From positions 25,863 through 89,862 of the forward strand of contig JBCBZT010000034.1 of assembly GCA_039815185.1 (NCBI GenBank): a stretch of 64,000 bases of DNA, written 5' to 3'. How positions within the stretch are numbered: the stretch's first letter is position 1; the number at the start of each line of letters is the position of its first letter. A model generated the notes under the pieces. The model was given only the letters and a program-made list of their open reading frames with translations. It was not told the DNA's origin and made no database searches. The position numbers were made by a program, and so were the translations under genes. This DNA is from Cyanobacteria bacterium P01_A01_bin.123 (GTDB lineage Bacteria; Cyanobacteriota; Cyanobacteriia; Phormidesmidales; Phormidesmidaceae). This document shows, in pieces, positions 166-47,489 of the stretch.

Positions 166-1197
166 TTACCAGTCATCAATCCCATCTCCTCCAGCAATCC
201 ATTCGTCTAAGTTGCGATCGCCCGTGGCCACATTAAACAGATGTAAGCCAAAATCCTTAGACAGGTCCTCACAGACCTTGATGCCCCGCACACTATTGCC
301 TTTAATGTCCAGCGGTGGCGAAAATGTGCCGATGCCCAATTTGCCGGGAACCACGGCTAAAATGCCGCCCCCCACGCCACTCTTGGCAGGCATACCAACC
401 CGGTAGGCCCACTCCCCTGAGGCGTCATACATGCCGCAAGTCAGCATCACACTGACGACATCTTGCACATAGCGTTCGTCGATCGCCCGTTCTTGAGTCA
501 CCGGATTGATACCACCATTGGCCAAAGTTGCCGATAGCATCGCCAGATCACGGGCATTGACCATGACTGAACATTGCTGAAAGTAGAGATCTAAGGTTTC
601 ATCAATTTTGTCGCCCACCATGCCAAAGTTGAGCATCAAATAGGCCATTGCCCGGTTACGATACCCCGTTGACTTTTCAGACAAAAAGACGGGCACATTG
701 ATATCGTGCTCTCGTCCGGTGAAGCGCTTAAACATTTCCAGCACCCGTTTAAGGCGCTCGGTGCCGTTTTTGCCCTTGATTAAATCAGCCGTTGCGATCG
801 CCCCCGCATTTACCATCGGATTGTAAGGACGGTTAGTGACCTCATCCAACACAATCGCGTTGAAGGCTTCGCCCGTGGGCTCCACGCTGACCTTGCTATT
901 AACATACTCACGCCCGTGATCTTCCAGGGCTAAGCCAAACACAAATGCTTTTGAAATGGACTGAATCGTAAAGAGTTGATCACACTCCCCCACCTCAAAC
1001 ACCTGACCATCGGCAGTCACAACGCAGATCCCGAACCATTCTGGCTTAGCGAGGGCGAGTTCAGGAATGTAGTCGGCAACGGTGCCGTCATCTAACGATC
1101 GATATTTTTCGTGTAGATCGTTCAAATAATTTCGAAAGGGCGAAGTAACCGCAGTAATCGAGTTGGCAAGGGACTGTAAATCTCCAAAATTGGACAT
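166..1197 (-). CDS. glsA: Glutaminase A (bacterial type)
   Basis: [18 protein letters not shown] (catalytic SxxK), [27 protein letters not shown] motifs. Confidence 0.95.
214..221. repeat. HIP1 octamer GCGATCGC (one representative copy of many)
   Basis: Further copies at 794, 4649, 4672 and throughout the window; a cyanobacterial hallmark. Confidence 0.9.
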
Positions 1198-1202: not shown

Positions 1203-1961
1203 CTAACCCTCCGTAATCTGCTGGGCCACTTTACGAAACTCTTGACTCACTTCGTGTTCAGGATATTTCACACAAAATACGCCTTCACTGGCCAGCTGCA
1301 CCACATCTTCCGACAGCGGAAACACCCCTGCGACCTTCTCATGGTAGGTTTCCTCGACTTTCTGCTGGAGGGCATCCAGATTCAGTTTGCTGTGGGCTTT
1401 GTTGATCGTCAGCAGCATTTTGCGAACTTTCAGTTGCCGGGCCACATCCACCGTGACCGCTGTGCCCTGGTAATCCTGTTTGTCAGGACGCAAAATTAGG
1501 ATCAACACATGTGAAATGGCAATTGACAAAAAGGTTTCTTTCGAAAGGCCTGGATGGGTATCAATGAACAAATAGTCCAACTTGAGTGCCTTAACGAGGC
1601 TACGAAACCCATCGTTCATCAGCTTGACATCGTAGCCATCCTTGAGAATACGGGCGATGTCATCTGCCTTAACACTGGAAGGCACGAGATAAAGTTTGCC
1701 CTCGCCTTCGACGCCAACATTAGCACCGATGTCGTAGGCCGTATCTTCAATTGAACTTTCACCCCACAAGTAATTATTAAGGGTTTTGTGAGTGTGCTCT
1801 GGTTCCAGACCAAACAGATTGTGAATACCGGGTGAGGGCACATCTGTATCGACAACCCCGACACGATACCCCTGCAGTGCAACTGTGGTGGCTAAGTTTG
1901 CAGTAAAGTTAGATTTACCCGTACCGCCTCGGTAAGAGTGGATCGAAACAACTTTTGGCAT
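1203..1961 (-). CDS. MinD/ParA-family P-loop ATPase
   Basis: Deviant Walker A RGGTGKS, VVDTD, FIDTHPG; no obvious C-terminal MinD membrane-targeting helix. Confidence 0.88.
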
Positions 1962-2160: not shown

Positions 2161-4296
2161 TCATATCTGAGTAGAGCGTAGTGCCGCTCCCGAATAAGCT
2201 TCTGCTTGCTTGAGAGCCTTAACAATAGCATCGTGGCGATGACGCATAGCATCATCGAGTGGGGTAAAGCCCCAACGGTCTTGGACGTTGGGGTTGACCT
2301 GATTGGCCAGTAAAAACTCAATCACGTTGAGCTGTCCTTCTGCGGCGGCAAGGTGGATGGCGGTGCGACCATCATAGTCTGCTGCATCCATGGAAATTCC
2401 GCGGGCAATGTAGGGCAACATCGCATTCAGATTGCCCTGACTAGCAGCCCAGATTAGGGCTGTAACATCAGTGGTGACCGAACTGGGCAGTTTGATGTCG
2501 GCTTGGGGATAAGAATCTTGCCCTCTTTTTGCCCCGGCCTCTTGCAGAATGGCGGCAACAGCCTTGTGTCCCTGTTGTTCGGCATCATTCAGCGGTGTGC
2601 AACCCCAGCGGTCGGTGACATTTGCATTTGCACCGTGCTCTAACAGAAATTGCACCACATTTTTATGACCACCGGCAGCGGCCAAGTGTAGAGGCGTTCG
2701 ATTGTCATAGTCGCCGGCATTCATATCGGCTCCACGAATTTGGTACTGCGTTATGGCCGTCAGGTCGCCTCGGCTGGCCACTTCAATTAAGCTGGTAATT
2801 TCTTCTGATTCTCGCTGAATTGGGCTGACACGGGGGTTCTTTTTTTCTGACTGAAAATCGAGATTATCGTAGTTGTGGACGCTAAATTTTTGAACCAGCT
2901 GCTTACAGAATTCAACCCCGCGCACGCTGTTGCCTTGAACATCAAGATTAGGGGACCAAATACACAAGCCCAACACGTTAGGAATGACAACCATGACCGC
3001 TCCGGACACGCCGGATTTGGCCGGTAACCCCACCATAAAGGCCCATTCACCACTGTAGTCATACATGCCGCAGGAGTACATCAAAGACAGACAGTGTTGC
3101 ACCGTATTGGTTTTGAAAATCTTTTCGCCTGTAATCGGACAGGTGCCCCCATTGGCCATGGTGGCAGCCACCACAGACATTTGGTCAGCATTCAATTCAA
3201 TCGAACAGGACTGAAAATAGAACTCTAGGGTTTCTTCAAGCTCGGCCCAGGCAGGGAATGCTTTCGTTTCCATCATGTAGTGGCTGAGGGCACGGTTGCG
3301 ATGGGCCGTTTCTCGCTCAGATAAATACACGGCGTTGTTAAAAGTAATCCGATCATTGCCGGTGAGACGGCTCCAGTGATTGAGCACATAATCAAACCGA
3401 TCGGCATGGGGTAGATCATGGCGAATCAGAGAACAGCACATAATAGCCCCTGCGTTAATCATGGGATTATGGGGTAATCCTTTACTGTTCAATGTGAGTT
3501 CATTGAACCCTAAACCAGAAGGTTCTCGCCCGACGTGCTGATGAACCACTTCGGCGCCCAGTTCTTCCAAGGCGAGACAGTAGGCAATGGTTTTGCTGGT
3601 GCTTTGCACCGTAAAGTTTTCAAGGGTGTTGCCACGGGAGTAGCGCTGCCCGTCAATGGTACAGATGGCCACGGCAAAGTTTCGCTCATCGACCCTGGCG
3701 AGTTGAGGAATGTAGTTGGCGAGGGCACCCCCATCATGAACACTGACCGCTTCGTAAATCGTGTCGATGTCCTGGCAAAAATCTTGAAAATCGGGAATGA
3801 TTAGCTGGGCTTTGAGTACCCGACGGATCAGATGGATATTGGGACGAATGATTTTTTGAAAGTCATCAAAGTCAATTTCAGAGTCATGGCGGGGTGAAAG
3901 CAGACCTAATTCCTGCAGACTCTCAGAAAAGCGTAAATCGGAGAGCTTGAGTCCAGCGCGCACAAAAGTACTCAAAAACTCTTCGCGCGTGATTTTACCG
4001 TTACCATCTAGATCGGCAGCTTGGAATAGGCGAAGATCCTGTTCATCGACGGCTTTAGCTGCTGTCATAGCCCGGCCTAAAGTTGGGGGTTGAGTCGGCT
4101 TGGGTAGGGTCGATTTAGCATCCTTTTGAGGCCGAGCCTCAGGCATAGGCTTGTCGATGGCCTTGGTTTTGGTTTTGGTTTTAGTTTTTTGATCCATGGT
4201 ATTTAGCATCAGGTGACGACAGGGTGGCATTGACAGAAAGCTGCCTGATGGGGAATCGCTGGCAGCGCTAGCGTTAAAGCGATGAATAGTGGGCAT
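2161..4296 (-). CDS. glsA: Glutaminase with N-terminal EF-hand and C-terminal ankyrin repeats (animal GLS-like architecture); start may be ATG 4197
   Basis: DLDGNGKITREE EF-hand; QSTSK, NPMINAGAI, GMYDYSGEW, PAKSGVSG, HNYDNL; ankyrin motifs RTPLHLAA, DRWGCTPL, RTAIHLAA, DRWGFTPL. Confidence 0.92.
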   Translation of the reverse strand: MPTIHRFNASAASDSPSGSFLSMPPCRHLMLNTMDQKTKTKTKTKAIDKPMPEARPQKDAKSTLPKPTQPPTLGRAMTAAKAVDEQDLRLFQAADLDGNGKITREEFLSTFVRAGLKLSDLRFSESLQELGLLSPRHDSEIDFDDFQKIIRPNIHLIRRVLKAQLIIPDFQDFCQDIDTIYEAVSVHDGGALANYIPQLARVDERNFAVAICTIDGQRYSRGNTLENFTVQSTSKTIAYCLALEELGAEVVHQHVGREPSGLGFNELTLNSKGLPHNPMINAGAIMCCSLIRHDLPHADRFDYVLNHWSRLTGNDRITFNNAVYLSERETAHRNRALSHYMMETKAFPAWAELEETLEFYFQSCSIELNADQMSVVAATMANGGTCPITGEKIFKTNTVQHCLSLMYSCGMYDYSGEWAFMVGLPAKSGVSGAVMVVIPNVLGLCIWSPNLDVQGNSVRGVEFCKQLVQKFSVHNYDNLDFQSEKKNPRVSPIQRESEEITSLIEVASRGDLTAITQYQIRGADMNAGDYDNRTPLHLAAAGGHKNVVQFLLEHGANANVTDRWGCTPLNDAEQQGHKAVAAILQEAGAKRGQDSYPQADIKLPSSVTTDVTALIWAASQGNLNAMLPYIARGISMDAADYDGRTAIHLAAAEGQLNVIEFLLANQVNPNVQDRWGFTPLDDAMRHRHDAIVKALKQAEAYSGAALRSTQI

Positions 4297-4565
4297 CGCT
4301 GACGACTTCAGGCCGATCAGAGAGACTATTTGCTGTGGGGATAAGGCTACACATAAATTGGAAATAGGACTCGATCCCAGCAGACTTAGAAGCTCTCACG
4401 CTGGTGAGTTGGTCAAAGATAGGCTGGGTCAGAATGTTTCGAGCCCGCTGCCAGACCAGGACGCCCATCACTGCAGCAGAGCCCAACTGACCCCTAACAG
4501 CACCAACATCACTTTTGATTTGATCCTGAGCTGCCCCAGTCCTAACATTGCACATCACTCCAATA

Positions 4566-4680: not shown

Positions 4681-6165
4681 CTACAATTTCGTCTCGATTT
4701 CAACGCTGGGTGCTTCGTCTGTCATTGAGAAGCCTGCGTAGGCAATCTGCCCATGCTCGTGGATATCGAGCCCCTCAATTTCCTCATAGCCATGGACACG
4801 GATGCCAATTGTTGCCTTCAATGCCATCCAGCAGATTAAGCCTGTGATGATCGTAAAGACACCATAAGCAAGCACCCCCAACAACTGCACGTTAAACTGC
4901 TGAACACCGGCATTCTCGCCAAAGATACCGACGGCCAAGGTAGCCCAGATACCGTTGCAGAGATGGACTGAAACAGCCCCTACCGGATCATCAATTTGTA
5001 GGGAATCAAAGAAATCAATCGCGAACACCACCAGTACACCTGAAACGCAGCCAATGATGATGGCTGATACAAACGACACCTGGTTGCAACTAGCAGTGAT
5101 ACCCACCAACCCTGCCAGAATGCCATTAATCACCATGCCTAAGTCTGGTTTTTTATTCTTGAACCAAGAGACAAAAGTAGCAATAGTCCCTCCAGCAGCA
5201 CCCGATAGGTTGGTTGTGATGGCAATATAAGCAATATTTTCATTAGCCGCCAACTCAGATCCAGGATTAAACCCAAACCAACCAATCCAGAGAATCAAAC
5301 AGCCTAGCGTGGCTAAACTGAGGTTATGGCCCGGAATTGGCTTCACGAGTTTGTCCTCATACTTGCCGTAGCGGGCACCCAGGACAATTGCCCCGACTAG
5401 GGCCGACCATCCTCCAACACTGTGCACCACCGTCGAGCCCGCAAAGTCGGCAAAACCTAAATTAGCTAACCAGCCGCCGCCCCAAGTCCATTTGCCCGAG
5501 ATGCAGTAAAAGGCGATATTAACCACACTAAAGATCAAAAAGGCGTCAAATCGAATCCGCTCAGCCACTGCTCCCGATACGATGGTGGCGGATGTCGCCG
5601 CAAAAGCCGCCTGAAACAGGAAGAAAATAGTAATTGGCAAACCTGCGGGGAAGGGATCCAAACCATAGGTGGCCGAGTCGCCCGACATAAAGAAACCCGT
5701 CAGGCCAATAAAGCTATTGCCCTGACCAAACATCAACCCAAAACCAATCGCCCAGTATGTGAGCAGGGCCAACCCAAATACAATTAGATTTTTAGAGAGG
5801 ATATTAACCGCGTTTTTCTGGCGGCACATCCCCACCTCTAACATGCCGAAGCCGGCATTCATAAAGACCACTAGGGTAGACGCCACCAAAATCCAAACCA
5901 CGTTGAGATATCCCTGCTGCAGCGCCACCTGCTCTGCCAGGGACTCTAGGGTGACATCATCCTGGGCAAACGTCACCGTAGATAAGCCGATGACAATCCA
6001 GGCTGAGACACAGAAAAACACCATGGTGCGGTGTCGAGTTACCCATCTCAATAACTGAGCTAAGGCATCGCGATAACGGGTATTAACTACCAAGGGAGGA
6101 CAACCATCTGTCTTCCCTTTGATTTGCTCGACATGACTAGACATTGTCACTCCTAATTCAAACAT
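4681..6165 (-). CDS. amt: Ammonium transporter (Amt family), accessory paralog
   Basis: [44 protein letters not shown]. Confidence 0.95.
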
Positions 6166-6922: not shown

Positions 6923-8281
6923 TCAGAAACTTTGAAAGCTCAGCTGTTGTTTAAAGTATGAACGATATACTTCACAACTCGATACAGCTTTGCAGCCTTG
7001 TATCTTGATTAGTCCAAGACTTTCTAATCGATACATTGTAACCGCATCCAGTTCTACACCTCCCTCGGTAGAAACGATTTGTTTAAGTGCAGTGGCTAGG
7101 TCGGGATCGCGTTTCAGCAGTGCCAAATAATTTCGTAGATGATCACCATAAATGCCAGATGGTGTGGAAGCCATTTTGATTAGATCTGCTGACTCTAAAT
7201 TTTGAGTCACGAGATGATAGAAAAACACATTCACTAAATAAGGGTGCCCACCCACTAAATCTACCAATTGTTGAGCACACGAACTATCAACCTGGTCTAA
7301 TCCATATCGAGCCGCTAATTCATAGACTTGAAGCGTTGTAAATCCAGGCAATTTGATCACTTGACCAATATTAAATGGAGATTGATGAATCTTTAAGGGA
7401 ACATAAATTTCAGTCGCATGGGCAATGACCAGGCGGAGATTGCGCCAACTCAGACTCCACTTCGCTTTTTCATGCCAGGAACGGAGCAATGGGAAAAAAT
7501 CTTGAGCGATCTTGGGATGTTCAATCAGGTCTTCAGCACCGGAAATAATCAGCACAATGGGGGTTCGAGTTCGCTCAAGAATGTGTGCTTGGTAGTAGAG
7601 TTCGCTACTGATTTTGTACCCCATTGATGAATCCCAATATTCTTCGAGCTTAGGGGGGATATTCAGTTCTTGACTCACCCGCAAACAAAACCATTGCAGA
7701 AACGTATCTATACTTGTGAATACAGCTTTATCAACGGTTTGCAAATCTAGATGGGCAGTTTGATAGCCCTGTTGTTCGGCAAATTGAATGAGCCGAAATA
7801 CCAGGGAAGTTTTTCCCATTTTTTGAGGGGCTTTGATGCGCAGAAAGCCGCCAGGACGTTGAATTTCTGAATAAGCTAAGTGTTCGTTGGGCGGGCGATC
7901 GATATACAGCGGCGAATAGGGCGACAACGGGCCAGACGGATACTGCAAATGGCTAGGGGGGGACACTGCGGTAACCGTTACAGGCACCTGTGGTTCGAGC
8001 GTTAGACTTGGGCTAGTCATCAGAGGGGATGACTGTAAACGCTCTCGGAGGACAAAGAGCAAACTCTTTTTGGTAACACGTTGTCCCAGGGCTTGGGAAA
8101 TCTCTCGCCATAGCTTATAGCCCGTGTCCTTGAGGTGGGCATCCCCATAACCTGAGTGTTGCGCCATTTGGTCATAGGTCTGCTTGTTCCAACTTTGCCC
8201 GAGCACAATCCGCTCCGCAGGGCTAAGCTGCCGCTTGAGAAACCGTTCTTCAATTGTCAGCAGAACTTGATCGGGATCCAT
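6923..8281 (-). CDS. N-terminal HTH plus AAA_35-like P-loop protein (putative transcription regulator)
   Basis: HTH-like N-terminus LSPAERIVL..TYDQMA..GYKLWREISQALG; Walker A APQKMGKTSL; SPFNIG; GGHPYL; Walker B degenerate (LIISGAED). Confidence 0.8.
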   Translation of the reverse strand: MDPDQVLLTIEERFLKRQLSPAERIVLGQSWNKQTYDQMAQHSGYGDAHLKDTGYKLWREISQALGQRVTKKSLLFVLRERLQSSPLMTSPSLTLEPQVPVTVTAVSPPSHLQYPSGPLSPYSPLYIDRPPNEHLAYSEIQRPGGFLRIKAPQKMGKTSLVFRLIQFAEQQGYQTAHLDLQTVDKAVFTSIDTFLQWFCLRVSQELNIPPKLEEYWDSSMGYKISSELYYQAHILERTRTPIVLIISGAEDLIEHPKIAQDFFPLLRSWHEKAKWSLSWRNLRLVIAHATEIYVPLKIHQSPFNIGQVIKLPGFTTLQVYELAARYGLDQVDSSCAQQLVDLVGGHPYLVNVFFYHLVTQNLESADLIKMASTPSGIYGDHLRNYLALLKRDPDLATALKQIVSTEGGVELDAVTMYRLESLGLIKIQGCKAVSSCEVYRSYFKQQLSFQSF

Positions 8282-8516
8282 ACGTTCATATGCTGGTTTT
8301 AATAACTCAAGTTTTCAGAAGAAATTCTTCTATATCTGCGGCTAAAAATAGTATCAAAAATCACACAATGTTATCTAGTAGGTGGCTGTAATGCCTTGAA
8401 GTACAACCCATCAGCTTTCCTGATTAGCCCAAGACCAGGAGAACTCCGGGAAATCACTTATTACTTTCTCACACAATTTTAGAAGGAGGCATCACACAAG
8501 TTTTCACTTTCTGCCT

Positions 8517-8543
8517 TTCTCCGTCTTTTCCGTCTTTTCCGAC
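8517..8543. promoter_or_regulatory. Three 9-bp direct repeats upstream of the HTH-AAA gene; candidate operator
   Basis: TTCTCCGTC TTTTCCGTC TTTTCCGAC in tandem. Confidence 0.5.
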
Positions 8544-8681
8544 CTATCTTTCAGTAGATGAGTTCATGTTTTGAAACGAATTTCCCTGAAAATCAATGCA
8601 AACGATTAAAACACATCTAATATTTAGGCACAGGGGGCTTCACCCTTCTTTACTTATCCACAAAAGATCTTTTGGCTACCG

Positions 8682-11600
8682 TCAATCTTCTGATAAGCCA
8701 TCACAGAGGGTGCGATCGCCCTCTGCTACCTCGACATTCGTGCGTAAATAATCTGCCACCCAATCGCAAGCATAGTTCAGCTCATTTAAAGACAGGATCT
8801 CCTCTAAATTCCAAAGGGTGAGGGTGCCATCTTCAGTGACCGTTATCAGCTCGCCTCTGTTGCTAAATTTCACACTCCTGAAGCCAGCCCCATGTCCATA
8901 GAGGGTTTTGAGTTTATCTCCATCCAGAGACCACAAAATAACGGTGTTATCACCACTGGCAGTGGCCAGCATTTGTCCATCAGCACTAAAATCCACCCCA
9001 AAAATACCCGTGGTGTGTCCTTCAAAGGTGCTGACCAAGGTGCCATCCCATCGCCATAATTTGGCTGTTCGATCGGCACTGGCCGAGGCAAAAAACTGAC
9101 CGTCCGGACTTACCGATAGCCCAAAAATATCTGAATCGTGGGCTTCAATCCTATGCCGACGGGTACCATCAGCATCCCAAATCTGAACAGTCCCATCCGA
9201 TCCTGATGAGACAAAGCTTTGATCGTCGGGGCTAAACGCCACACGATAGATCCGCCCATTATGCCCATCAAGGGTATGTATGAGTTCTCCCTCGACCGTC
9301 CAAATTCGGATGGTTCCATCTTCTGCCCCCGCCACCACGCGTTGATTGTCAGCGCTAAAGGCAGCATCCCAAATTTGGAGTTGATGCCCCTCTAAATCCC
9401 GCAGAAAACGCCCCTCCTGGGTCCAAAGTTTAAGGGTGCCGTTGTGTCCAGTCGTCGCCATCATTTGACCATCTGGGCTGAAGTCAAATCCAAACAGGAT
9501 CTCGTCCGTTTGTAGTGTGGCAACGATGTTCCGCTCCTTGTCCCAGATATGAACCATCGTGCTATCGCCAGAAATAATCCGGTCACCTTGAGGACTGATG
9601 GCCAGATCCCAAATCTCATCATTTAGAAAGATGGTTTTGAGCAGTGATGTTTCCCACTGCCTGAGCTGCGCTGTATTGCGAGTGCCGGTCATCACGATGG
9701 ATTGAACATCGGTGGGAGAAAAGCTGAGTTCGCGGATATCTCCTGGGGTTTGAAGGATGCGCCAAGGGTTTCCATCTTTTCCCCAAATCCAAAGGGTTTT
9801 ATCTAGACCTGCGGAGGCGATCGCAGTTCCATCAGCCGCAAATGCCACGTCTTCAACCCGCTTTGTGTGCCCCGTCAGGGTTGTGATGGGGGCCCCATCA
9901 AGCTGCCAGAGCTGTACCACTTGACCGTCGCCGCCAGTGGCCACTAAGTTTCCTGTAGTGCTAAAGGCCACACTCCAAAGACTGCCACCTTCGAGGGCTC
10001 CCGGTAATGTCCCTAGGAGTTGACCATCGGGAGTCCAGACTTTGGCAGTATTATCCAGACTCGCCGAAGCGATGGTTTGATCCACTGGACTCACGGCGAC
10101 TTGCCAAACCATGCTTTGATGCCCCGACAACGTTGTGAGCAAAGTCCCGTCTAGATTCCATACCTTAGCCTGCTGATCGGCGCCACCTGAGACTAAAAAT
10201 TCTCCCATGGGGCTAAAGGCTAAAGTCCAGGCAGCTCCTTCATGGGCCTGGATCGTTTGCACCAATGTTTTTGATTCAAGATTCCAAATTTGTAAGCTAC
10301 CGTCCAAATTGGTTGCCGCTAGCAAGGGACGTTGGGGATGAAACGCGACACCAAAGGTGGTGGCATTACCGGCAAAGGTGTGGAGGAGTTGGCCGTTCTT
10401 AGCCCAGAGCTTGACGGTTTGATCGCCACTAGCGGTCGCAATTAATTCTCCATCCGGGCTGTAGGCGACCCCCAAAACGTGTCCTTCATGGCCTGACAAC
10501 CGATTCCGTTCACTCATCCAATAGACAATCTGGTTGAGGGCACGATCTGCCGCCGCTTCTAACTGCGGATCAGGCTGCTCAAGATCCTGGAGCCGGCGCT
10601 TCGCTTTGATGGCATCAACTAGGGCCTCTAATTCTTGGTGGGAGGCAAACCGCCCTTCTGCCGATGAGATCAGGGCTCGAATTTCATTCAAGCGAGAGGT
10701 CTGTTCACTGGCGATCGCTCGACGATATTGGCGAAAAGCCACTAGACCCAATAAGGACACGATCACTAACGCACCTGAGATCATTCCCAGAAGAATTCGC
10801 TGTAGACGAGTGGTGCGTCTAGCCGCTTGGGCCTTCTCTAAATCCAGCGACTTCTGAATTTCAGCCTGTTCTTGCTCTTGACCCAGAGACAAAAATCGAT
10901 AGTCTAAGTCGCTCAGGCTTTTGCCCCGAGCCCAGGCTTGGGCGTCCCGTAATGCCTGTCCCCGCAGCAATCGCGATTCATCCACTTGCTGTGAGCCTAC
11001 CCAGGCATTAAACATTTCCGAGTAAGGACGTAGGGCGCCCAACTGGCGCTGCACCCAATCTAGATCAAATACGTTTTCATAAATGCGGTTTTTAACCCGG
11101 AGATAGCCCCCTTGCTGCACCATCAGACCGCTAAGCAGTAGCTCTATTTGGTCCCGACTATCGTCGGTAGCGATGGTTTGCCCCTCTAGCCAGCGTTGAT
11201 AGAGGCCCAATAAACGTCCCGTACGGCGGTCATCGTAGAGCAACCGATCGCGAATCGTGCGCAAATGCTCGGGCTCATCTTGGGATTCCCAGTGATCAAT
11301 GATCTGCGATCGCACCACACTTTCCACCCAGAATCGCTCCATCCCAGGGGGTACACTCAGCGGCTCATTGATCGCGGTTTGGCTAGAGACAACCAATAAC
11401 TGGCAGACCTTTTGAATGAGAAACGGTTGGCCCCCCGTCCAATTCAACACTTCTTGCAAAATGGCGGCAGTGTTTGGGGTTTGAATCTGCAAGCCATGGG
11501 CTAAAGGAGCTGCTGCTTCGAGGCTAACCCCACTCAGCACAATGGCCCGACCAATATTAAACGGGGTGCGTTGTTTATCGGCAATTAAATCTGTCGGGGT

Positions 11601-12149
11601 CGCGACCCCAAAGATGGCAAAGGTCAGGCGTTTGTAGTCTGGTTCGACGGCTCGCCGGTTGTAGCAAAAGCGGATTAGCGCAAAGAAGTCATCTACTGAA
11701 AAGGGCAGGTTGAGCAGACTATCTACTTCATCGATAAAGATAAACAGCCGTTGGTCAGAGCACTGAGTTAGAACTGTTTCAATAAACTGACTCAAAATCT
11801 GAGTCAAAGAAAGATGACTTCGCGCCTCCCACCAATCGCGAATATCAAGGGTTGTTAACAAATCAAGCTGTAGTGCCAGGGTGGCCATTAAGCCCCGATA
11901 CCATTGTTCCGGCGTGATCTGGTCACTGCCAATGTTGGTGACATCGACGACTGCACAGCGATGCCCCTCGGCCTGGAGTCGATGCCAACTGCGCACCATC
12001 AGCGATGATTTGCCCATTTGGCGGGAATTGAAAACGTAGCAAAACTCCCCTGCTAATAGCGCTGTGTAGAGGTCTCTATCGGCTTGACGTTCAATATAGG
12101 TTGGGGCGTTGTAGTCGAGACTGCCACCAATTTGGTAATAGTTGGCCAT
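8682..12149 (-). CDS. AAA_35-like ATPase, hydrophobic helix and WD40-repeat protein
   Basis: YQIGGSL, SRQMGKSS, IFIDEVD, TPFNIG, WTGGQPFL; hydrophobic ILLGMISGALVIVSLLGLVAF; about 14 GH..W repeats. Confidence 0.9.
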   Translation of the reverse strand: MANYYQIGGSLDYNAPTYIERQADRDLYTALLAGEFCYVFNSRQMGKSSLMVRSWHRLQAEGHRCAVVDVTNIGSDQITPEQWYRGLMATLALQLDLLTTLDIRDWWEARSHLSLTQILSQFIETVLTQCSDQRLFIFIDEVDSLLNLPFSVDDFFALIRFCYNRRAVEPDYKRLTFAIFGVATPTDLIADKQRTPFNIGRAIVLSGVSLEAAAPLAHGLQIQTPNTAAILQEVLNWTGGQPFLIQKVCQLLVVSSQTAINEPLSVPPGMERFWVESVVRSQIIDHWESQDEPEHLRTIRDRLLYDDRRTGRLLGLYQRWLEGQTIATDDSRDQIELLLSGLMVQQGGYLRVKNRIYENVFDLDWVQRQLGALRPYSEMFNAWVGSQQVDESRLLRGQALRDAQAWARGKSLSDLDYRFLSLGQEQEQAEIQKSLDLEKAQAARRTTRLQRILLGMISGALVIVSLLGLVAFRQYRRAIASEQTSRLNEIRALISSAEGRFASHQELEALVDAIKAKRRLQDLEQPDPQLEAAADRALNQIVYWMSERNRLSGHEGHVLGVAYSPDGELIATASGDQTVKLWAKNGQLLHTFAGNATTFGVAFHPQRPLLAATNLDGSLQIWNLESKTLVQTIQAHEGAAWTLAFSPMGEFLVSGGADQQAKVWNLDGTLLTTLSGHQSMVWQVAVSPVDQTIASASLDNTAKVWTPDGQLLGTLPGALEGGSLWSVAFSTTGNLVATGGDGQVVQLWQLDGAPITTLTGHTKRVEDVAFAADGTAIASAGLDKTLWIWGKDGNPWRILQTPGDIRELSFSPTDVQSIVMTGTRNTAQLRQWETSLLKTIFLNDEIWDLAISPQGDRIISGDSTMVHIWDKERNIVATLQTDEILFGFDFSPDGQMMATTGHNGTLKLWTQEGRFLRDLEGHQLQIWDAAFSADNQRVVAGAEDGTIRIWTVEGELIHTLDGHNGRIYRVAFSPDDQSFVSSGSDGTVQIWDADGTRRHRIEAHDSDIFGLSVSPDGQFFASASADRTAKLWRWDGTLVSTFEGHTTGIFGVDFSADGQMLATASGDNTVILWSLDGDKLKTLYGHGAGFRSVKFSNRGELITVTEDGTLTLWNLEEILSLNELNYACDWVADYLRTNVEVAEGDRTLCDGLSED

Positions 12150-27045: not shown

Positions 27046-27161
27046 GTGTCATATGGAACACATCGGAGCTTTATGGCTTTGCCGCATTTTATTAGGGGAA
27101 ATTGCGCAGACACAACCTGACCCAAGTAGCGCAGTGCCGTGCGTCAACTCAAGGGAATTCC

Positions 27162-28904
27162 ATGCCAAATCATGTTTTCAACGCCTGGGGCTTAAAACTA
27201 ATGGGGGGCTTGATGCCGTTAGCTGCGATCGCGATCGCAGAACCCCCTACCGCCAGCGCCGCCAGCTTCAACCCAATTGACCTGGATGAAAGTTGGTCAT
27301 TTGCTTTCGAAGACTACGCCATTGAACACCAGGGCCAGAGCCTAGTCGACATCACCGTCAGCTATGACTATGTAGACGGTATCGGCCTTGATGATCCGTT
27401 TGAATATCCCGAATTTCTGCAAATCTTCAACTACATCGACAATTTTCTGGTCACTTATCCCAACGAAACTGACTTTTGGGAAATTCTGAATAAAAACCTA
27501 GTGACCGATCTGCTGACTGAACCCATTCCCACCGTATTTGGGTTTGACTATCAACTGAGCGATGTGCTGGATTCTCTCACGGTCGATATTGCCGTCGCTT
27601 CCGGGTCTTCAGATATTGTTGTGCCTCGGACGAGCACAGTCACGGGTATTCCGGGCGCAACGATTGACCTATTTGAAAGCTGGTCCTTTGCCCTCGAAGA
27701 CTACGCCATTGAACACCAGGGCCAGAGCACCGTTGATTTAACCGTCAGCTATGACTACGTCAACGGCATTGGCGAAGATGATCCCTTTGAGTATCCCGAG
27801 TTTTTGCAGATTTCCAACTTCATCGAGACATTTTTAACGGATTATCCCAATGAAACGGATTTCTGGGAGATTCTCAACAAAAATCTGGTGACTGATTTGC
27901 TGAGTGAGCCAATTCCGACGGTGTTTGGTTTTGATTATCAGCTGGCTGAGGTGCTTGATGCGCTGACCGTCGATATTGCAGTCCAGCCCGGCTCATCTGA
28001 CATTGATGTGCCCCGGACAAGCACAGTGACGGGCTTGCCTGGTGACTCGATTGACCTGGATGAAAGCTGGTCGTTTGCATTCACAGACTACGCCATTGAG
28101 CACCAGGGTCAGAGCACCCTCGATTTAACCGTCAGCTATGACTACATCGACGGCATCGGCACCGACGATCCGTTTGAATATCCGGAATTCTTGCAGATTT
28201 TCAACTTCATTGAGGCATTTTTAACGGAATACCCCAACGAGACTGACTTTTGGGAAATCCTCAACAAAAATCTGGTCACCGACTTACTTAGCGAACCGAT
28301 TCCCACCGTGTTTGGCTTTGATTATCAGCTGGCTGAGGTGCTCGATCAGCTCACAGTGGATATTGACGTGCAAGCTGGGTCTTCTAATATCGACGTACCC
28401 CGATCAAGTACGGTGACGGGCTTCCCCGGCAACACGGTTGATCTCGATGAAAGCTGGTTCTTTGCCTTTGAAGACTACGCCATAGAACACCAGGGCCAGA
28501 GCCTGGTTGATCTATTCGTCAGCTATGACTACGTTGATGGTATCGGTGTGGACGACCCCTTCGAGTATCCAGAATTTTTGCAGATTTTCAACTTTATTGA
28601 TACGTTTTTGGTTGACTACCCCAACGAAACCGACTTTTGGGAAATTCTCAACAAAAACCTGGTGACTGATTTACTCAGCGAGCCAATTCCCACCGTGTTT
28701 GGCTTTGACTATGAACTGGCCGAGGTGCTGGACAACCTGACAGTAGATATCGATGTGCAGTCGGGGTCATCAGATATTGTTGTGCCGCGCTCTAGCATGG
28801 TAACGGGTACGGTCGTGGCTTCGGCAGATGTGCCAGAACCAAAACTATGGCTGGGGTTAGGCATCGTCACAGTTTTAGCTGGGTGGTGCAAACACAAGCG
28901 TTAA
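27162..28904 (+). CDS. Secreted PEP-CTERM protein with four tandem 129-aa acidic repeats
   Basis: Signal-like N-terminus ending ASA; repeats start at 27276, 27663, 28050 and 28437; C-terminal VPEP, TM, KHKR. Confidence 0.88.
   Translation: MPNHVFNAWGLKLMGGLMPLAAIAIAEPPTASAASFNPIDLDESWSFAFEDYAIEHQGQSLVDITVSYDYVDGIGLDDPFEYPEFLQIFNYIDNFLVTYPNETDFWEILNKNLVTDLLTEPIPTVFGFDYQLSDVLDSLTVDIAVASGSSDIVVPRTSTVTGIPGATIDLFESWSFALEDYAIEHQGQSTVDLTVSYDYVNGIGEDDPFEYPEFLQISNFIETFLTDYPNETDFWEILNKNLVTDLLSEPIPTVFGFDYQLAEVLDALTVDIAVQPGSSDIDVPRTSTVTGLPGDSIDLDESWSFAFTDYAIEHQGQSTLDLTVSYDYIDGIGTDDPFEYPEFLQIFNFIEAFLTEYPNETDFWEILNKNLVTDLLSEPIPTVFGFDYQLAEVLDQLTVDIDVQAGSSNIDVPRSSTVTGFPGNTVDLDESWFFAFEDYAIEHQGQSLVDLFVSYDYVDGIGVDDPFEYPEFLQIFNFIDTFLVDYPNETDFWEILNKNLVTDLLSEPIPTVFGFDYELAEVLDNLTVDIDVQSGSSDIVVPRSSMVTGTVVASADVPEPKLWLGLGIVTVLAGWCKHKR
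27276..28812 (+). repeat. Four 387-bp intragenic repeats
   Basis: Exact 387-nt period; near-identical protein with many synonymous differences. Confidence 0.95.
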
Positions 28905-28909
28905 CATCA

Positions 28910-29097
28910 TTGAGTAAGTACACGGCGAGATGCTCCGGTAAGGTGACTCGAATATCGCCCCTTAGATGCAGATCCTGTCCTAAAATATGCCGTTCAATGC
29001 CGTTGATCTCGTCTTCAATGCGAATGACGACTTGCAGTAATTCCTCACCCGCAAGGGTCAGGGCATAACCACTGGGCAATCGATCAAATAATCCAAT
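28910..29097 (-). pseudogene. LysR-family regulator fragment (end of HTH plus linker)
   Basis: LFDRLPSGYALTLAGEELL...LRGDIRVTLPE; lacks the start of the HTH and the effector domain. Confidence 0.7.
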
Positions 29098-29260
29098 ATT
29101 ATCGAATTAAGCCTCATTGAACGCTCCAATGCAAGGAAATCCTTCCAAGGAAAACATTGAGGATGCCGTTGCCTCCAAATCCATTAACCGATTGCGTGAA
29201 ACTAGTTGTAGCAGTAGCACTCCCTTCGACTCTACTGGAAGAAAGCGCCTCTTTTATAAG

Positions 29261-29809
29261 CTACAAACCAAAGCTATGCTGATAGAAGGGAACTCGCTTG
29301 AGTTGCGCATAGTTTTGTGCGACAAACTGCTCCTCATCCTTAAGCATCTGCTCTACTTGAGCTAGCAAAAAACTGCTCGTTCCAAACGGATAGATTCTCA
29401 CAAATCTAGGCAGGATATGACGAAAAACTGAGTAGTATGGAAAATCAGTCTTGGGTAATTCGCAGACAAACGCGGCCTGGGCGCAGACCTGAATCGGTAG
29501 CGGTTGAGTGCTATTGATTTCAAAGGATATAGGTATAGCTGGTGCAAGACGTTGAACTGATCTGAAGGGTGATTTTTTCGCAAAAATTGACCCTATTTTG
29601 AGTTCATCAAAGTGAGCAACTATTTGGTGGTCAAAAACAAGCCATCCTTGGGTTTGATAAAGCCTTTTAGCTGAAAATTTTTGACTAAAAAATACACATC
29701 TTTTGACTATTACAGACGTCGTCAAAACGGCAATTTGAAAATGGCCTAGATCTGCGATCGCAACTTCGCCAAATAAGGGCTCAGGGCCCTGAGACATAAA
29801 GTTAGTCAT
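29261..29809 (-). CDS. Hypothetical protein
   Basis: 182-aa ORF whose ATG overlaps the stop of the upstream ORF (ATGA). Confidence 0.55.
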   Translation of the reverse strand: MTNFMSQGPEPLFGEVAIADLGHFQIAVLTTSVIVKRCVFFSQKFSAKRLYQTQGWLVFDHQIVAHFDELKIGSIFAKKSPFRSVQRLAPAIPISFEINSTQPLPIQVCAQAAFVCELPKTDFPYYSVFRHILPRFVRIYPFGTSSFLLAQVEQMLKDEEQFVAQNYAQLKRVPFYQHSFGL

Positions 29810-30078
29810 AACGACACCTCACTGCACTCAAGATTCTTGAGTTGGATGTAGTCAGAATCTTGGGTAATACTCATTAATGAATGGTTATTTTGTAACTCTC
29901 GTAACTGCAACAATTCAAAGCCTGATGAGTTATGAGATTGTAAGGTGAAACAAGGTGCAGTATGAGTACCTTCAAATGTTGAAACTGTAGGCGCACAGTC
30001 TGATATTGGAGTTATATGGGAAGAAAGTTTTTGCATAGAGAATGTCATCTCATTACTTCTTTGGAAAAATGAGTCCAA
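29806..30078 (-). CDS. Hypothetical small protein
   Basis: 90-aa ORF coupled to 29261-29809; start uncertain. Confidence 0.35.
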   Translation of the reverse strand: MDSFFQRSNEMTFSMQKLSSHITPISDCAPTVSTFEGTHTAPCFTLQSHNSSGFELLQLRELQNNHSLMSITQDSDYIQLKNLECSEVSL

Positions 30079-30637
30079 CTCAAAAAATGAGTTCTGCGAT
30101 CGCTACTAATTTTTTATTGAGTTCCGCAAAATCAGGCAGCGAGTTTGAAAGAGAAGATTTTAACTTTCGCAGAATCCGTAGAGAATTGGTACAGGTTCAT
30201 TTGACTTAGTGCTCAATCCGAAGTCAGAACTGAAATAACGGATTGCCTATGGATAACCTCATGCGATCGCAGCAGCATTCCAGAACGTATCCTAATTCAA
30301 GTCGCAATTGAATATTTAGCAGAGTCGATTACTTGTTTCAGCTATACTGGTTCAGTTTTCACTGGTTCTTAAGCTGTTGTAATCGAAGCTCACCAGTTAA
30401 GTTCTGGTTCAAACCAATCATCTGAATTGAAATACCTCACTGCTGCAAAAGACAAGGGCTAGTTCAGCGTGAATGGCATTTCAATATAACTTGTCAATTA
30501 GAGCTTCTTGATCTGTAGAAGAATCAACAAAAGTCTACACTGCTGTTCATTCAAACTTATCGGCATAAGTTTTTTCTAGCATATGAACCCTGGTTTATAC
30601 GATTGTGCTGCAAAAAGGTGACGGGTTTGGGAAAAAT

Positions 30638-30669
30638 GTGGATCACTTTTCGATCACATTTGGATCACA
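30638..30669. promoter_or_regulatory. Three GATCAC direct repeats with 11-bp period; candidate operator
   Basis: GATCAC at 30641, 30652 and 30663 in the divergent intergenic region. Confidence 0.45.
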
Positions 30670-31172
30670 ACTCAAGTTTTCGACCTGAGAAAGTGTTTGA
30701 AGAGGCATAAACCTTGGTCTAATCTAAATCTATAGGCTCGCTTAAGCTAAAACTCAAGTTTTCAACTCGGATAGGACTTCAGTCAGTAACATTAAGCACT
30801 CAGAAATTCTCGACTTTTTATAATTCCAGATAACTGCGTTTCAAGAATCAGTACTGTGTGAAATTTATCACATTGATAAAAATCTATTTGGTTTTGCTGG
30901 AAATTATAATTTGACGAACTAGAAAAGTGAATGATTTTTTCTTTGTGCATAAGCTCCTCCACACTCAGCACAAATTTCTAAACACCAGGCTTCACATTGG
31001 TCTATACGGTAAAAGCCTTTGCAAAGGCTATCACGGGGGTAGATTATCCACTGGGCTTTGGATGAGTCTGTTTAGTGATTATCAACTCCAAAACCTGAAT
31101 AAGTCCATTCGGGTTAGTAATATACAGTGACAATTACCTCATCCAACATTAAACAGGAGAGCTGGAGGAAAG

Positions 31173-32279
31173 ATGACGAGTCTTAGAGCTTCTGAAAAAG
31201 GATTAGAAATAGTAAATTCAGCGAGAATAAGAAGAGGCTGGTCAAAAAGCTCAGATGCATGGGCTGATCTAGCCAAGGTCTCATCAGGTACTCTCAAGCG
31301 ATTTTGGCAGGGGAAGGCTATCCGAAGCGATAGTTTTCAAGAAATATGTCATGCGATAGGTGTCTATAGCTGGATAGATATTGCAGACTTTAACTCATCT
31401 GAAAACGAATCATTTAAGTCAGATATAGCTGCTCATTTCATAACTGGAAATCCAATCTTAGATCCGAAACTTTTCTTCGGTAGGGATGCAGGTATAAGGC
31501 GCATTTTCAGTATCTTAAACAGGCACCCATTGCAAAACATTGCAGTCATGGGCAAGAAGCGGAGTGGCAAAACTTCCCTATTGCACTATATATCAAAGAT
31601 TACGAAAATCCATCCTGAAAATCTTAGAGCCGATCAAAAAAGTCATTGGTTAAAAAATTCAGAAGCATACAACTGGATATTTATCGATTTTCAAGATAGG
31701 AGAATGATGAATCAAAATAAACTATTAGGCTATATTCTAAGTCAGATGGGATTACAAGATGAACATCAACTTGATTTAGAGCTATTCATGGAGATTTTTA
31801 GCTCAAATATCAAGAAGCCAACGGTTATTCTTTTTGATGAAATTGATGGCGCAATACAACCTAATTCGCCTTTAGACGATCCTTTTTGGGAAAGCCTCAG
31901 GTCTCTAGGGACGAATCACTCTCAAGGAAACTTATCTTTTGTGCTGGCATCCTCTAGCTTGCCAAGTGAGCTTGCCCATAGCACAGGATATATATCACCC
32001 TTCTTTAATATTTTTGGTCACATTATCAAGCTAGGGCCATTAACAGAGACAGAAGCTTATGAACTGATGCGGAGCTCACCGATTCCTTTCTCAAGTGAGG
32101 ATGAGAAATGGATCATTAGCGAAAGCCAGTGCTGGCCTTTGCTACTACAAATTTTATGTAGCGAGCGTTTGTTTTCATTAGAAGAAAGCGAGAAAGAAGG
32201 GACTTATGAAGGCTTTGATTGGCAAGCGCAAGGTCTCATGGAGATAGAGCGCTTTCGATATTTACTCGATTCTAACTAA
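31173..32279 (+). CDS. N-terminal HTH plus AAA/P-loop ATPase
   Basis: SLRASEKGL..WADLAKVSSGTLKRFWQG HTH-like; FFGR, GKKRSGKTSLL, ILFDEID, SPFFNIF. Confidence 0.82.
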   Translation: MTSLRASEKGLEIVNSARIRRGWSKSSDAWADLAKVSSGTLKRFWQGKAIRSDSFQEICHAIGVYSWIDIADFNSSENESFKSDIAAHFITGNPILDPKLFFGRDAGIRRIFSILNRHPLQNIAVMGKKRSGKTSLLHYISKITKIHPENLRADQKSHWLKNSEAYNWIFIDFQDRRMMNQNKLLGYILSQMGLQDEHQLDLELFMEIFSSNIKKPTVILFDEIDGAIQPNSPLDDPFWESLRSLGTNHSQGNLSFVLASSSLPSELAHSTGYISPFFNIFGHIIKLGPLTETEAYELMRSSPIPFSSEDEKWIISESQCWPLLLQILCSERLFSLEESEKEGTYEGFDWQAQGLMEIERFRYLLDSN

Positions 32280-32281
32280 CA

Positions 32282-32725
32282 ATGGCTAATGCTTCTGATT
32301 CAGAAAAAACTAAAGTTGATCGCCTAGGAGCCTTATTGCGTGAGCTAAATCGTACCCATGATCAATATGCAGTCCGCTTCATGCCGATTATCACGTTTAA
32401 CGATTGGCTAGATTATCTCGAAGAGGTTCTAACAGAAAGCATCATTCTGATCGCCCTAGACGAGTTTGAGGTGCTCGAAGGATCCTTTAGCAGAGGTCAA
32501 CTTTGCGAGGCAGACATTCTGGAAATGTTGAGAAACCTAATTCAACATCGTTCTCGATTCAGATTGCTGTTGTCTGGCTCAAACACATTAGATAAATTTC
32601 AAAAATGGTCTAATTATTTAATTAACACTAAGGTCTTCAAAGTTGGCTACTTAAACGATAAAGAGTCTCATCAGTTGTTTCAGGTAGAACTCATCCGTCG
32701 TTGGTTTAGTCAAAAAACAAGATGA
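32282..32725 (+). pseudogene. Internally deleted AAA ATPase remnant
   Basis: Has Walker B IALDEFE and C-terminal FQVELIRRWF but no Walker A; only 147 aa. Confidence 0.6.
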
Positions 32726-32784
32726 CTGTTATATGATGTCCCAACGCCAGATGGTAAAGCGACGCGTGTTACCTGCATCAGTCT

Positions 32785-47125: not shown

Positions 47126-47489
47126 GATTGTCTTGTATCAAAATTGGTGGAATCATTCTGACTTTGTCTGTAAATTTGGGGACTACCAAACGACTCAGGA
47201 GTATTCCGTATCAAAAGCGCCCTGCTTTTACTTGGATAATATTGGCTCTCCCTGTAGAGTCCTGATTGTATAACCGTGTGATTTTGTTGTTATCAGCCCC
47301 AATTTTGTCGCTCCTCCTGGCAGGCACTTTGCCTTTGGCAGAGTCTCTGCCTTTGTTAAGGCCGTGATGATTCGACTACATCCGATTTGAAGACCTGAGT
47401 TTTTAACTTAAGGAAAAATTGTGGATCTAGTGGATCTGAATGTGGCCAAAGTTTAATTGACCTTGTGTGTTGAAGGAACGTCTGTAGAG

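What the first reader, a model, noticed from the sequence alone, without database searches (positions are those of the whole stretch)
2161..4296. Animal-type glutaminase in a cyanobacterium, with a canonical EF-hand and a doubled ankyrin module
Seen: EF-hand loop DLDGNGKITREE; IPDFQDFCQDIDTIYE and HNYDNL flanking the catalytic domain; two copies of a three-ankyrin module (about 2805-2530 and 2470-2200). Known: human kidney-type GLS has an EF-hand-like bundle, the catalytic domain, NYDNL and one three-ankyrin module with DYD.RT.LH.AA and DRW..TP, while typical bacterial GlsA is catalytic-only. Inference: horizontal transfer or a relative of the ancestral eukaryotic form, possibly Ca2+-regulated.
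Basis: partly seen in the sequence, partly recalled or inferred. Interest (0 to 1): 0.75.

Follow-up and report, generated by a model that had tools for sequence, protein, structure and literature searches.

The report
Human-style glutaminase with self-pairing ankyrin tail
This cyanobacterial gene encodes a glutaminase built like the human cancer-target enzyme; it belongs to a rare but widespread bacterial group and was likely acquired from other bacteria rather than animals, and it is predicted to work without phosphate activation, to pair its two ankyrin modules within one chain, and possibly to bind calcium.

Summary
Observation confirmed. The ORF (2161-4296, minus; likely start 4197) is EF-hand bundle + intact glutaminase + two three-ankyrin modules, and its model superposes on human KGA (496 residues, rmsd 1.6 A). 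It is not ordinary cyanobacterial GlsA, and it is neither unique nor animal-derived: all 80 GTDB loci kept (12 phyla) carry glutaminase + ankyrin, 22 with the doubled module. Trees put it in a bacterial subclade; grouping it with animals scores poorly (p-AU 0.025 and 0.084); the direction between bacteria and eukaryotes is unresolved. New here: (1) the human phosphate site is changed (R317G, K320E) and the BPTES residue F322 is Thr, but the filament face is largely kept; (2) the two ankyrin modules are predicted to pair (0.84 vs 0.00), reproducing the inter-chain pair of human GLS, probably in cis; (3) a canonical EF loop occurs in 11/11 cyanobacterial orthologues and 0/69 other bacteria; (4) other bacteria keep it beside glutamine synthetase (43/69) and Amt (34/69), versus 1/17 and 0/17 for classical GlsA. 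A bacterial origin of the architecture was, as I recall, proposed in 2017; I found no characterised bacterial member.

The parts
2161..4296 (-). GLS-type glutaminase ORF, 711 aa; likely true start Met34 at 4197 (678 aa)
   Evidence: orthologue N-termini
4066..4197 (-). Low-complexity, predicted disordered N-terminal tail (residues 34-77)
   Evidence: AlphaFold pLDDT under 50 for model residues 1-44; poorly conserved among orthologues
3793..4029 (-). [quoted passage not shown]
   Evidence: structural match
3979..4014 (-). Canonical 12-residue EF-hand loop (residues 95-106), candidate single Ca2+ site; the second loop is degenerate
   Evidence: strict pattern in 11/11 cyanobacterial orthologues, 0/69 other bacteria
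2869..3729 (-). Glutaminase catalytic domain (PF04960); Y195, S232, K235, N281, E327, N334, Y360, Y412, V430 equal human Y249, S286, K289, N335, E381, N388, Y414, Y466, V484; filament-face residues F301, F319, N321, Y324, L325, E358, Q362
3490..3516 (-). Activation loop (residues 261-269): G263 and E266 replace the human phosphate ligands R317 and K320; T268 replaces the BPTES residue F322
   Evidence: roles
2860..2877 (-). HNYDNL motif ending the catalytic domain, identical to human KGA
2521..2805 (-). Ankyrin module 1 (residues 498-592) with DYD 529-531 and DRW 562-564
2191..2469 (-). Ankyrin module 2 (residues 610-702) with DYD 640-642 and DRW 673-675; predicted to pair with module 1
4334..4486 (-). 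5' remnant of a dCache adenylate/guanylate cyclase gene; the rest of it and a whole MscS-cNMP gene, present in most orthologous loci, are missing here
   Evidence: 82% identity over 51 aa to the L002 protein
4681..6165 (-). Ammonium transporter Amt, upstream on the same strand; present in 8 of 11 cyanobacterial loci
1203..1961 (-). MinD/ParA-like ATPase, downstream; in 4 of 11 cyanobacterial loci
166..1197 (-). Classical catalytic-only GlsA, 40% identical to the GLS-type catalytic domain; in 3 of 11 cyanobacterial loci

Best explanation
The gene encodes a GLS-type glutaminase with all catalytic residues intact that likely hydrolyses glutamine to glutamate and ammonium, was likely acquired from another bacterium, and is predicted to be phosphate-independent with its two ankyrin modules likely paired within one chain. 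Shown: the architecture, the intact Ser232-Lys235-Tyr412 centre, the fold match to human KGA, membership of a bacterial subclade, and the gene neighbourhood. Inferred: (a) it forms the usual glutaminase tetramer and may stack into filaments, since the filament face is largely kept (about 0.45); (b) Glu266 stands where human Lys320 binds phosphate and would satisfy the basic pocket (Arg333) itself, so phosphate activation and BPTES/CB-839 inhibition would be lost (about 0.65); (c) module 2 occupies the DYD/RW face of module 1 in cis, which would remove the inter-subunit ankyrin clamp that dampens KGA/GLS2 (pairing in cis about 0.6; effect on activity about 0.4); (d) the EF loop binds one Ca2+ (about 0.5) and tunes activity (about 0.3); (e) its role is to release nitrogen from glutamine within an ammonium-handling cluster (Amt, a second GlsA, a flavin amine oxidase); in other phyla it opposes a co-encoded glutamine synthetase, which would explain why it carries regulatory domains.
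For: Nine of nine catalytic/substrate residues kept. AlphaFold with 141 rows: pLDDT 91.9, pTM 0.89; Foldseek to KGA 8gwr_B TM(target) 0.95, rmsd 1.9; VIA Z 58.1, rmsd 1.6, 496 aligned, versus YbaS Z 45.1, rmsd 1.5, 307 aligned. Starred bacterial subclade (97; 98); its nine two-module members group at 94. Window+animals: delta lnL 22, p-AU 0.025 and 25, p-AU 0.084. Position 320 is Glu in 59/69 other bacteria and 11/11 cyanobacteria, Lys in 3 of 4 vertebrate-type rows; filament positions F355 66/69, F373 62/69, N375 68/69, Q416 65/69, while none of 7 classical GlsA rows has F355, F373 or N375. Human Pi site and filament residues from PMC10770349; K320A is constitutively filamentous (PMC13142944); F322 needed for BPTES (PMC4171615); ankyrins restrain GLS2/KGA (PMC9949068). 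Module 1 with module 2: score 0.84, best of 3 controls 0.00, 86% contact agreement, partner pLDDT at least 86, interface through both DYD and both RW motifs; the mark was reached by 116 of 157 solved and 2 of 215 mismatched pairs. DYD and DRW/DRF kept in module 2 of 93/93 two-module rows; linker never under 18 aa. GS in 43/69 and Amt in 34/69 non-cyanobacterial loci versus 1/17 and 0/17 classical GlsA loci; an independent metagenome set gave 31/80 and 27/80.
Against: No activity, ligand or expression data. Trees are quick searches with SH-aLRT only (careful runs unfinished); window+animals was not rejected on the longer alignment (0.084) nor in treekit's two-tree test against a poorer free tree (0.44). 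The ankyrin pass may come from likeness to solved human ANK dimers, was run on separate chains, and cannot tell cis from trans; module 1 with module 1 was not tested. The filament residues may be kept for folding; Q416 is also present in 6 of 7 classical GlsA rows, and F378, Q379, D412 are changed to Y, L, E. R387 and Y394 of the Pi pocket are kept, so anion binding is not excluded. No GS lies near the gene in 11/11 cyanobacterial loci, so the GS-opposing role does not apply directly here. The cyanobacterial orthologues are 81-86% identical, so EF-loop conservation is weak evidence of selection.
Confidence: 0.65

Rival explanations
1. The whole bacterial GLS-type group descends from one ancient transfer out of eukaryotes and then spread among bacteria with a GS-Amt operon; the cyanobacterial gene is a late recipient.
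For: Bacterial monophyly inside eukaryotes is not rejected (p-AU 0.13); FastTree and one IQ-TREE set rooted among eukaryotes; the group is rare in every sample: 4/300 Alphaproteobacteria, 0/200 in the phylum of Nannocystis, 5/200 Planctomycetota, centres excluded; giant viruses carry the same architecture.
Against: The best rooted tree has eukaryotes as one clade inside bacteria (p-AU 0.85); another taxon set rooted within bacteria; eukaryotic branches are longer, so a basal position may be long-branch attraction; viral copies form their own group (94) away from bacteria.
Confidence: 0.3
2. Recent, direct transfer of an animal glutaminase into this cyanobacterial lineage (for example from a reef host), with animal-like phosphate regulation.
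For: About 50% identity to human GLS in the catalytic domain; not formally rejected on the EF+catalytic+ANK alignment (p-AU 0.084).
Against: Bacterial relatives are closer (56-65% in the catalytic domain); starred bacterial subclade; p-AU 0.025 on the catalytic domain; the doubled module is shared with Nannocystis, Uabimicrobium and others; R317/K320 absent.
Confidence: 0.04
3. The second ankyrin module pairs in trans, linking neighbouring subunits or tetramers (or binding a partner protein), so that doubling tightens repression or cross-links assemblies rather than releasing the clamp.
For: Both modules keep the pairing face; the complex test used separate chains; in GLS2 the bundle is shared between subunits and is inhibitory.
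Against: The single-chain model places both modules with high confidence, linker blocks at pLDDT 86-92 and pTM 0.89; linker length has a floor of 18 aa, as expected for a cis reach.
Confidence: 0.3
4. The EF loop is structural only and the enzyme is an unregulated, redundant glutaminase.
For: The second EF loop is degenerate; 0/69 other bacteria have the strict loop; the genome has two more glutaminases; the neighbouring cyclase and MscS-cNMP genes were lost here.
Against: Loop positions 1, 3, 6, 8, 9 and 12 are invariant in 12/12 sequences while positions 2 and 7 and many third codon positions vary.
Confidence: 0.4

Closest known systems
Human kidney-type glutaminase KGA (GLS; PDB 5uqe, 8gwr) and GLS2 (8szl)
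   Same: Same order of EF-hand-like bundle, catalytic domain, HNYDNL and three-ankyrin module; 44-45% identity over about 500 residues; rmsd 1.6-1.9 A; catalytic residues and most filament-face residues kept.
   Different: Second ankyrin module; canonical EF loop (vertebrate rows lack it); R317G, K320E, K398T at the phosphate site; F322T at the BPTES site; no R317-E325 pair; bacterial gene context.
Classical bacterial GlsA/GlsB (E. coli YbaS 1u60, B. subtilis YbgJ 1mki; the window's own 166-1197 gene)
   Same: Same catalytic fold and active-site residues; passes TIGR03814 glutaminase A (315.7 vs cut-off 255.4).
   Different: Only 30-40% identical; long branch with support 100; classical forms lack the EF bundle, this ankyrin module, F355/F373/N375 and the GS-Amt neighbourhood.
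Bacterial multidomain glutaminases annotated 'glutaminase A' (Nannocystis radixulma, Ca. Uabimicrobium amorphum, Eudoraea adriatica, Kordiimonas aestuarii, Leptolyngbya sp. Heron Island J)
   Same: Same group; Nannocystis, Uabimicrobium, Eudoraea and Leptolyngbya also have two modules. As I recall, Pasquali et al. 2017 (J Biol Chem 292:11572; not readable here) proposed that the multidomain form came from bacterial ancestors.
   Different: Only the cyanobacterial lineage has the strict EF loop, and its cluster has a cyclase and an MscS-cNMP channel instead of glutamine synthetase. I found no biochemical or structural study of any of them.
Protist tandem glutaminases and giant-virus glutaminases
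   Same: Same GLS-type catalytic domain with ankyrin modules; Mimiviridae glutaminases are mentioned in PMC9270025.
   Different: Many protist forms duplicate the whole catalytic+ANK unit (1000-1240 aa); viral forms form a separate group; neither is the nearest relative.

Membership tests
Glutaminase (PF04960, serine-dependent) | Profile match over cut-off | tested here: met
   372 bits vs 27; TIGR03814 315.7 vs 255.4
Glutaminase (PF04960, serine-dependent) | Catalytic S-x-x-K, Y466 and substrate residues | tested here: met
   9 of 9 positions kept
Glutaminase (PF04960, serine-dependent) | Hydrolyses L-glutamine | not testable with these tools
   needs an enzyme assay
GLS-type multidomain glutaminase (eukaryotes, some bacteria, giant viruses) | EF-hand-like bundle + catalytic domain + DYD/DRW three-ankyrin module | tested here: met
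GLS-type multidomain glutaminase (eukaryotes, some bacteria, giant viruses) | Catalytic domain groups with eukaryotic GLS, apart from classical GlsA | tested here: met
   support 100
Vertebrate phosphate-activated GLS (KGA/GAC) | Phosphate site R317, K320, R387, Y394, K398 | tested here: not met
   G, E, R, Y, T: 2 of 5 kept (site)
Vertebrate phosphate-activated GLS (KGA/GAC) | BPTES determinants F322 and Y394 | tested here: not met
   T268 and Y340 (determinants)
Vertebrate phosphate-activated GLS (KGA/GAC) | Filament face F355, F373, N375, F378, Q379, D412, Q416 | tested here: inconclusive
   4 of 7 identical, 2 conservative (Y, E), 1 changed (L); assembly itself not tested
Animal GLS clade | Nests with animal sequences | tested here: not met
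   starred bacterial subclade; p-AU 0.025 and 0.084
Classical cyanobacterial GlsA | Nests with the other cyanobacterial glutaminases | tested here: not met
   40% identity to own GlsA; separate clades
Ca2+-binding EF-hand | Canonical 12-residue loop in helix-loop-helix | tested here: met
   PF00036 over cut-off; helices flank the loop in the model; 11/11 orthologues
Ca2+-binding EF-hand | A paired second functional loop | tested here: not met
   second loop degenerate in the window and orthologues; PF13499 pair model under cut-off, 28 vs 30
Ca2+-binding EF-hand | Measured Ca2+ binding | not testable with these tools
   needs ITC or a structure

The most novel reading that the evidence does not exclude
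Bacteria hold a regulated glutamine synthetase-glutaminase-Amt module whose glutaminase is the living sister, or source, of eukaryotic GLS and already forms GLS-like filaments without phosphate; phosphate gating is a late vertebrate change at one position (Glu to Lys320). One bacterial branch switched off the inter-subunit ankyrin brake by duplicating the module so that it pairs with itself, and this cyanobacterial lineage added a Ca2+ switch in the EF-hand, giving a Ca2+-gated filament-forming glutaminase in a prokaryote. Since the commonest partner is the eukaryote-type GS II, eukaryotes may have taken both enzymes from one such operon.
Probability: 0.15. Interest if true: 0.8.

Novelty: new variant of a known kind. 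Interest (0 to 1): 0.5.

Why it matters
A 2026 review states that bacterial glutaminases need no phosphate and lack a conserved filament interface (PMC13142944), judging from classical GlsA. This group keeps most of that interface while lacking the phosphate ligands, so it is a natural test of whether filament formation predates phosphate gating. It also offers soluble bacterial models for how the ankyrin and EF-hand domains of a cancer drug target regulate catalysis: a natural self-paired ankyrin tandem and a natural canonical EF loop. The conserved GS-Amt-GLS gene cluster in many phyla points to an unstudied, regulated glutamine cycle in bacteria and bears on where eukaryotes obtained their glutaminase.

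Tried and rejected
Pasquali et al. 2017, the key paper, is not held; its conclusion is recalled, and only a one-line summary was seen in PMC13142944, so it may already list some of these bacterial proteins. Ten paper searches listed no study of a bacterial EF-hand/ankyrin glutaminase or of a GS-Amt-glutaminase operon; most subscription papers are outside the library. Earlier scan findings were not available. Folding without an alignment failed (pLDDT 34). Careful bootstrap trees did not finish. Rooting with classical GlsA is unstable: among animals, among bacteria. A clade of eukaryotes plus all five sampled Alphaproteobacteria scored worst (p-AU 0.024), which argues against that strict form of a mitochondrial origin but not against origin from one lineage. 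A giant-virus donor was considered: viral copies group apart. A viral scan with one divergent protein found nothing; the alignment-based scan did. No RNA holder was listed. The promoter scan found 1 site against 3.0 expected. Contamination was considered (G000 contamination 5.99%) and rejected by synteny and GC3. Type I GS was not searched for in the neighbourhood counts. A catalytic-domain homodimer prediction was not run to completion and would have been uninformative by likeness to solved structures.
Full report
1. Observation. The minus-strand ORF 2161-4296 encodes 711 aa. Pfam finds the GLS-type EF-hand bundle (PF17959, 90-168), a single EF-hand over cut-off (PF00036, 89-109), the glutaminase domain (190-476) and ankyrin repeats. 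The nearest solved sequence is human KGA (E 1.8e-144 over residues 93-587), far above E. coli YbaS (E 2.7e-54). With a 141-row alignment AlphaFold gives pLDDT 91.9 and pTM 0.89, with only the first 44 residues disordered; the model matches KGA 8gwr_B at TM 0.95, rmsd 1.9 A and at Z 58.1, rmsd 1.6 A, 496 aligned. Orthologues start at the equivalent of Met34, so the likely start is 4197.

2. Surroundings. On the same strand lie Amt (4681-6165), the GLS-type gene, a MinD-like ATPase (1203-1961) and a classical GlsA (166-1197); beyond the window edge follows an ORF whose sequence visibly matches the flavin amine oxidase of L002. A third glutaminase lies on contig C70. In 9 of 11 cyanobacterial loci a dCache cyclase gene and an MscS-cNMP gene precede the glutaminase, and 8 of 11 have Amt. 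The window keeps only a 51-codon remnant of the cyclase at 4334-4486. GC3 is typical of the genome.

3. Distribution. A GTDB scan gave 191 stretches encoding a relative; the best 80 were kept. All 80 have the catalytic domain plus at least one ankyrin module; 22 have two (11 cyanobacterial, 11 others), L033 is cut by its contig end, L034 is partial, and L066 has a second module as a separate small ORF. They span 12 named phyla. The type is rare: 12 of 151 genomes in the window's family, in 4 of 19 genera; none of 400 other Cyanobacteriota had a close copy, the listed full-span matches being G052 (56%) and G110/G382 (41-42%); 4 of 300 Alphaproteobacteria, 0 of 200 in the phylum of Nannocystis and 5 of 200 Planctomycetota, centre genomes excluded. 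The protein search also returned protist forms with the whole unit duplicated, and IMG/VR gave 59 loci, most of them labelled giant-virus bins; of the 56 with a catalytic domain, 51 have an ankyrin module.

4. Gene clusters. Of the 69 non-cyanobacterial loci, 43 have a glutamine synthetase within the fetched flank (32 type II-like, 11 type III), 34 have Amt and 34 have both, mostly adjacent and co-oriented. The type II-like proteins score 449-457 bits on GlnII, under the cut-off of 500, and match eukaryotic GS structures at about E 1e-104. As a control, 17 classical GlsA loci from Pseudomonadota and Bacteroidota with 6 kb flanks had GS II in 1 (opposite strand) and Amt in 0; the one GLS-type gene met among the 60 Bacteroidota drawn had GS III and Amt, while two Planctomycetota GLS-type loci had neither. 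An independent metagenome set gave GS in 31 of 80 and Amt in 27 of 80, many contigs being short. Kin are not independent, so these are descriptions, not tests.

5. Phylogeny. Eukaryotic names come; unnamed rows were left out of the IQ-TREE sets. All trees separate GLS-type from classical GlsA by a long branch (SH-aLRT 100). On 48 rows by 510 columns the window lies in a starred clade of 15 bacterial rows (97), inside a group of nine two-module proteins (94) with Nannocystis and Uabimicrobium; Eudoraea, also two-module, falls outside, so the doubling may have arisen more than once. The best tree found splits eukaryotes from bacteria. Joint AU tests: eukaryote|bacteria 0.82, free 0.32, window+animals 0.084, eukaryotes+five Alphaproteobacteria 0.024; with six classical GlsA as outgroup (41 rows, 313 columns): eukaryotes one clade 0.85, bacterial GLS-type one clade 0.13, window+animals 0.025. 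Treekit's two-tree test of window+animals against a poorer free tree gave 0.44. The root moved between taxon sets and no bootstrap run finished. So the gene most likely came from another bacterium, and the direction between bacteria and eukaryotes is open. Twenty-six of 56 viral rows were added in one tree and formed their own group (94).

6. Residues. Human numbering was carried over a goose GLS (P0237) in which 26 of 26 checked positions matched. All nine catalytic and substrate residues are kept. Of the five phosphate ligands named in PMC10770349 (first of two parts read), R387 and Y394 are kept; R317 is Gly, K320 is Glu and K398 is Thr (Lys in 11 of 11 orthologues). Glu at 320 is the rule in other bacteria (59 of 69 rows: L012-L080 without L034, plus L082) and occurs in 6 of 9 invertebrate, fungal and protist rows. 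K320A makes GAC constitutively filamentous (PMC13142944, passages and section 4). I infer that Glu266 replaces the anion and that the enzyme does not need phosphate. F322, needed for BPTES (PMC4171615, passages; PMC4264947, one passage), is Thr. The filament face is F, F, N, Y, L, E, Q against human F, F, N, F, Q, D, Q; F355, F373 and N375 are kept in 66, 62 and 68 of 69 bacterial rows and in none of 7 classical rows. This runs against the review's statement that bacterial glutaminases lack the interface, though folding constraints could also explain it.

7. Ankyrin doubling. In GLS2 and KGA the ankyrin bundle is shared by two subunits and lowers activity (PMC9949068, passages and section 8). 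Among 93 two-module rows of the alignment, module 1 keeps DYD in 91 and DRW/DRF in 92, module 2 both in 93; linkers are 18-35 aa. Folded as two chains, module 1 and module 2 score 0.84 against a best control of 0.00, with at least 86% contact agreement and partner pLDDT at least 86; the mark was reached by 116 of 157 solved and 2 of 215 mismatched pairs. The interface is pseudo-symmetric through both DYD and both RW motifs. That this is the face of the human ANK dimer is recalled from Pasquali 2017, and the pass may reflect likeness to those structures. The confident single-chain model favours pairing in cis; pairing in trans is not excluded.

8. EF-hand. A strict canonical loop is in the window, in 11 of 11 cyanobacterial orthologues and in 0 of 69 other bacteria; positions 1, 3, 6, 8, 9 and 12 are invariant while positions 2 and 7 and many third codon positions vary. 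The partner loop is degenerate. One Ca2+ site is plausible and lineage-specific; regulation is unproven.

9. What is known. Human GLS architecture is described in PMC11224379 (passages); PMC8130709 notes that the tetramer is conserved from bacteria to humans (passages); PMC7809476 adds nothing on bacteria (passages); PMC9270025 mentions Mimiviridae glutaminases (passages). Pasquali et al. 2017 could not be read; as I recall, it proposed that the multidomain architecture was inherited from bacterial ancestors with the proto-mitochondrion. Its supplements may list members of this group. Ten searches found no characterised bacterial member and no report of the operon.

10. Verdict. Real, and a member of the GLS-type glutaminases, not of the animal clade nor of the vertebrate phosphate-activated enzymes. 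The architecture in bacteria is probably known in outline; the doubled, self-pairing ankyrin module, the lineage-specific EF loop, the split between lost phosphate site and kept filament face, and the GS-Amt cluster appear undescribed and are directly testable. New variant of a known kind; interest 0.5.

Noticed in passing
L093:1790-3568(-), L094:2028-3737(-), L095:1932-3656(-) (G110, G382): Small-genome cyanobacteria (family f18) carry a separate, divergent GLS-type glutaminase (570-590 aa, 41-42%) whose ankyrin module is replaced by a DjlA/TerB-like tail (weak NF006948 hit); in one quick tree it fell among protists on a long branch, a possible independent transfer from a eukaryote.
   Followed up: partly
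L083-L092, L109, L110: Non-photosynthetic relatives of cyanobacteria (families f35, f36) have catalytic-only glutaminases of the GLS type (51-61% to the window's domain, about 320-335 aa), nested among multidomain forms, so probably secondary domain loss.
   Followed up: partly
L229-L284 (IMG/VR, mostly GVMAG bins): Giant viruses encode GLS-type glutaminases with an ankyrin module (51 of 56) that form one group in the tree; no GS or Amt within the 2 kb flanks.
   Followed up: partly
P0014-P0068 (about 40 of these rows): Protists (Andalucia, oomycetes, Rhodosorus and unnamed) have tandem glutaminases of 950-1240 aa; in many, one catalytic copy is degenerate, suggesting a pseudo-enzyme regulatory half.
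   Followed up: no
L001-L011, upstream of the glutaminase; window 4334-4486: A dCache adenylate/guanylate cyclase gene and an MscS-cNMP channel gene sit between Amt and the glutaminase in most orthologous loci; both are deleted in the window except a 5' remnant.
   Followed up: partly
L018:5965-11781: A Myxococcales locus with a second, 1264-aa GLS-type protein (long N-terminal extension, two ankyrin modules) and a further ankyrin protein directly behind the first glutaminase.
   Followed up: no
window 47457-48953 (+): A second ammonium transporter in the same window.
   Followed up: no
window 29001-33000: Low-GC stretch (0.37-0.42); ORFs 27102-28904 and 31173-32279 had no Pfam hit at E 1e-10.
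   Followed up: no
window 6923-12149 (-): AAA_35 protein followed by an AAA_35-WD40 protein; homologues also flank the glutaminase in L005, L010 and L113.
   Followed up: no
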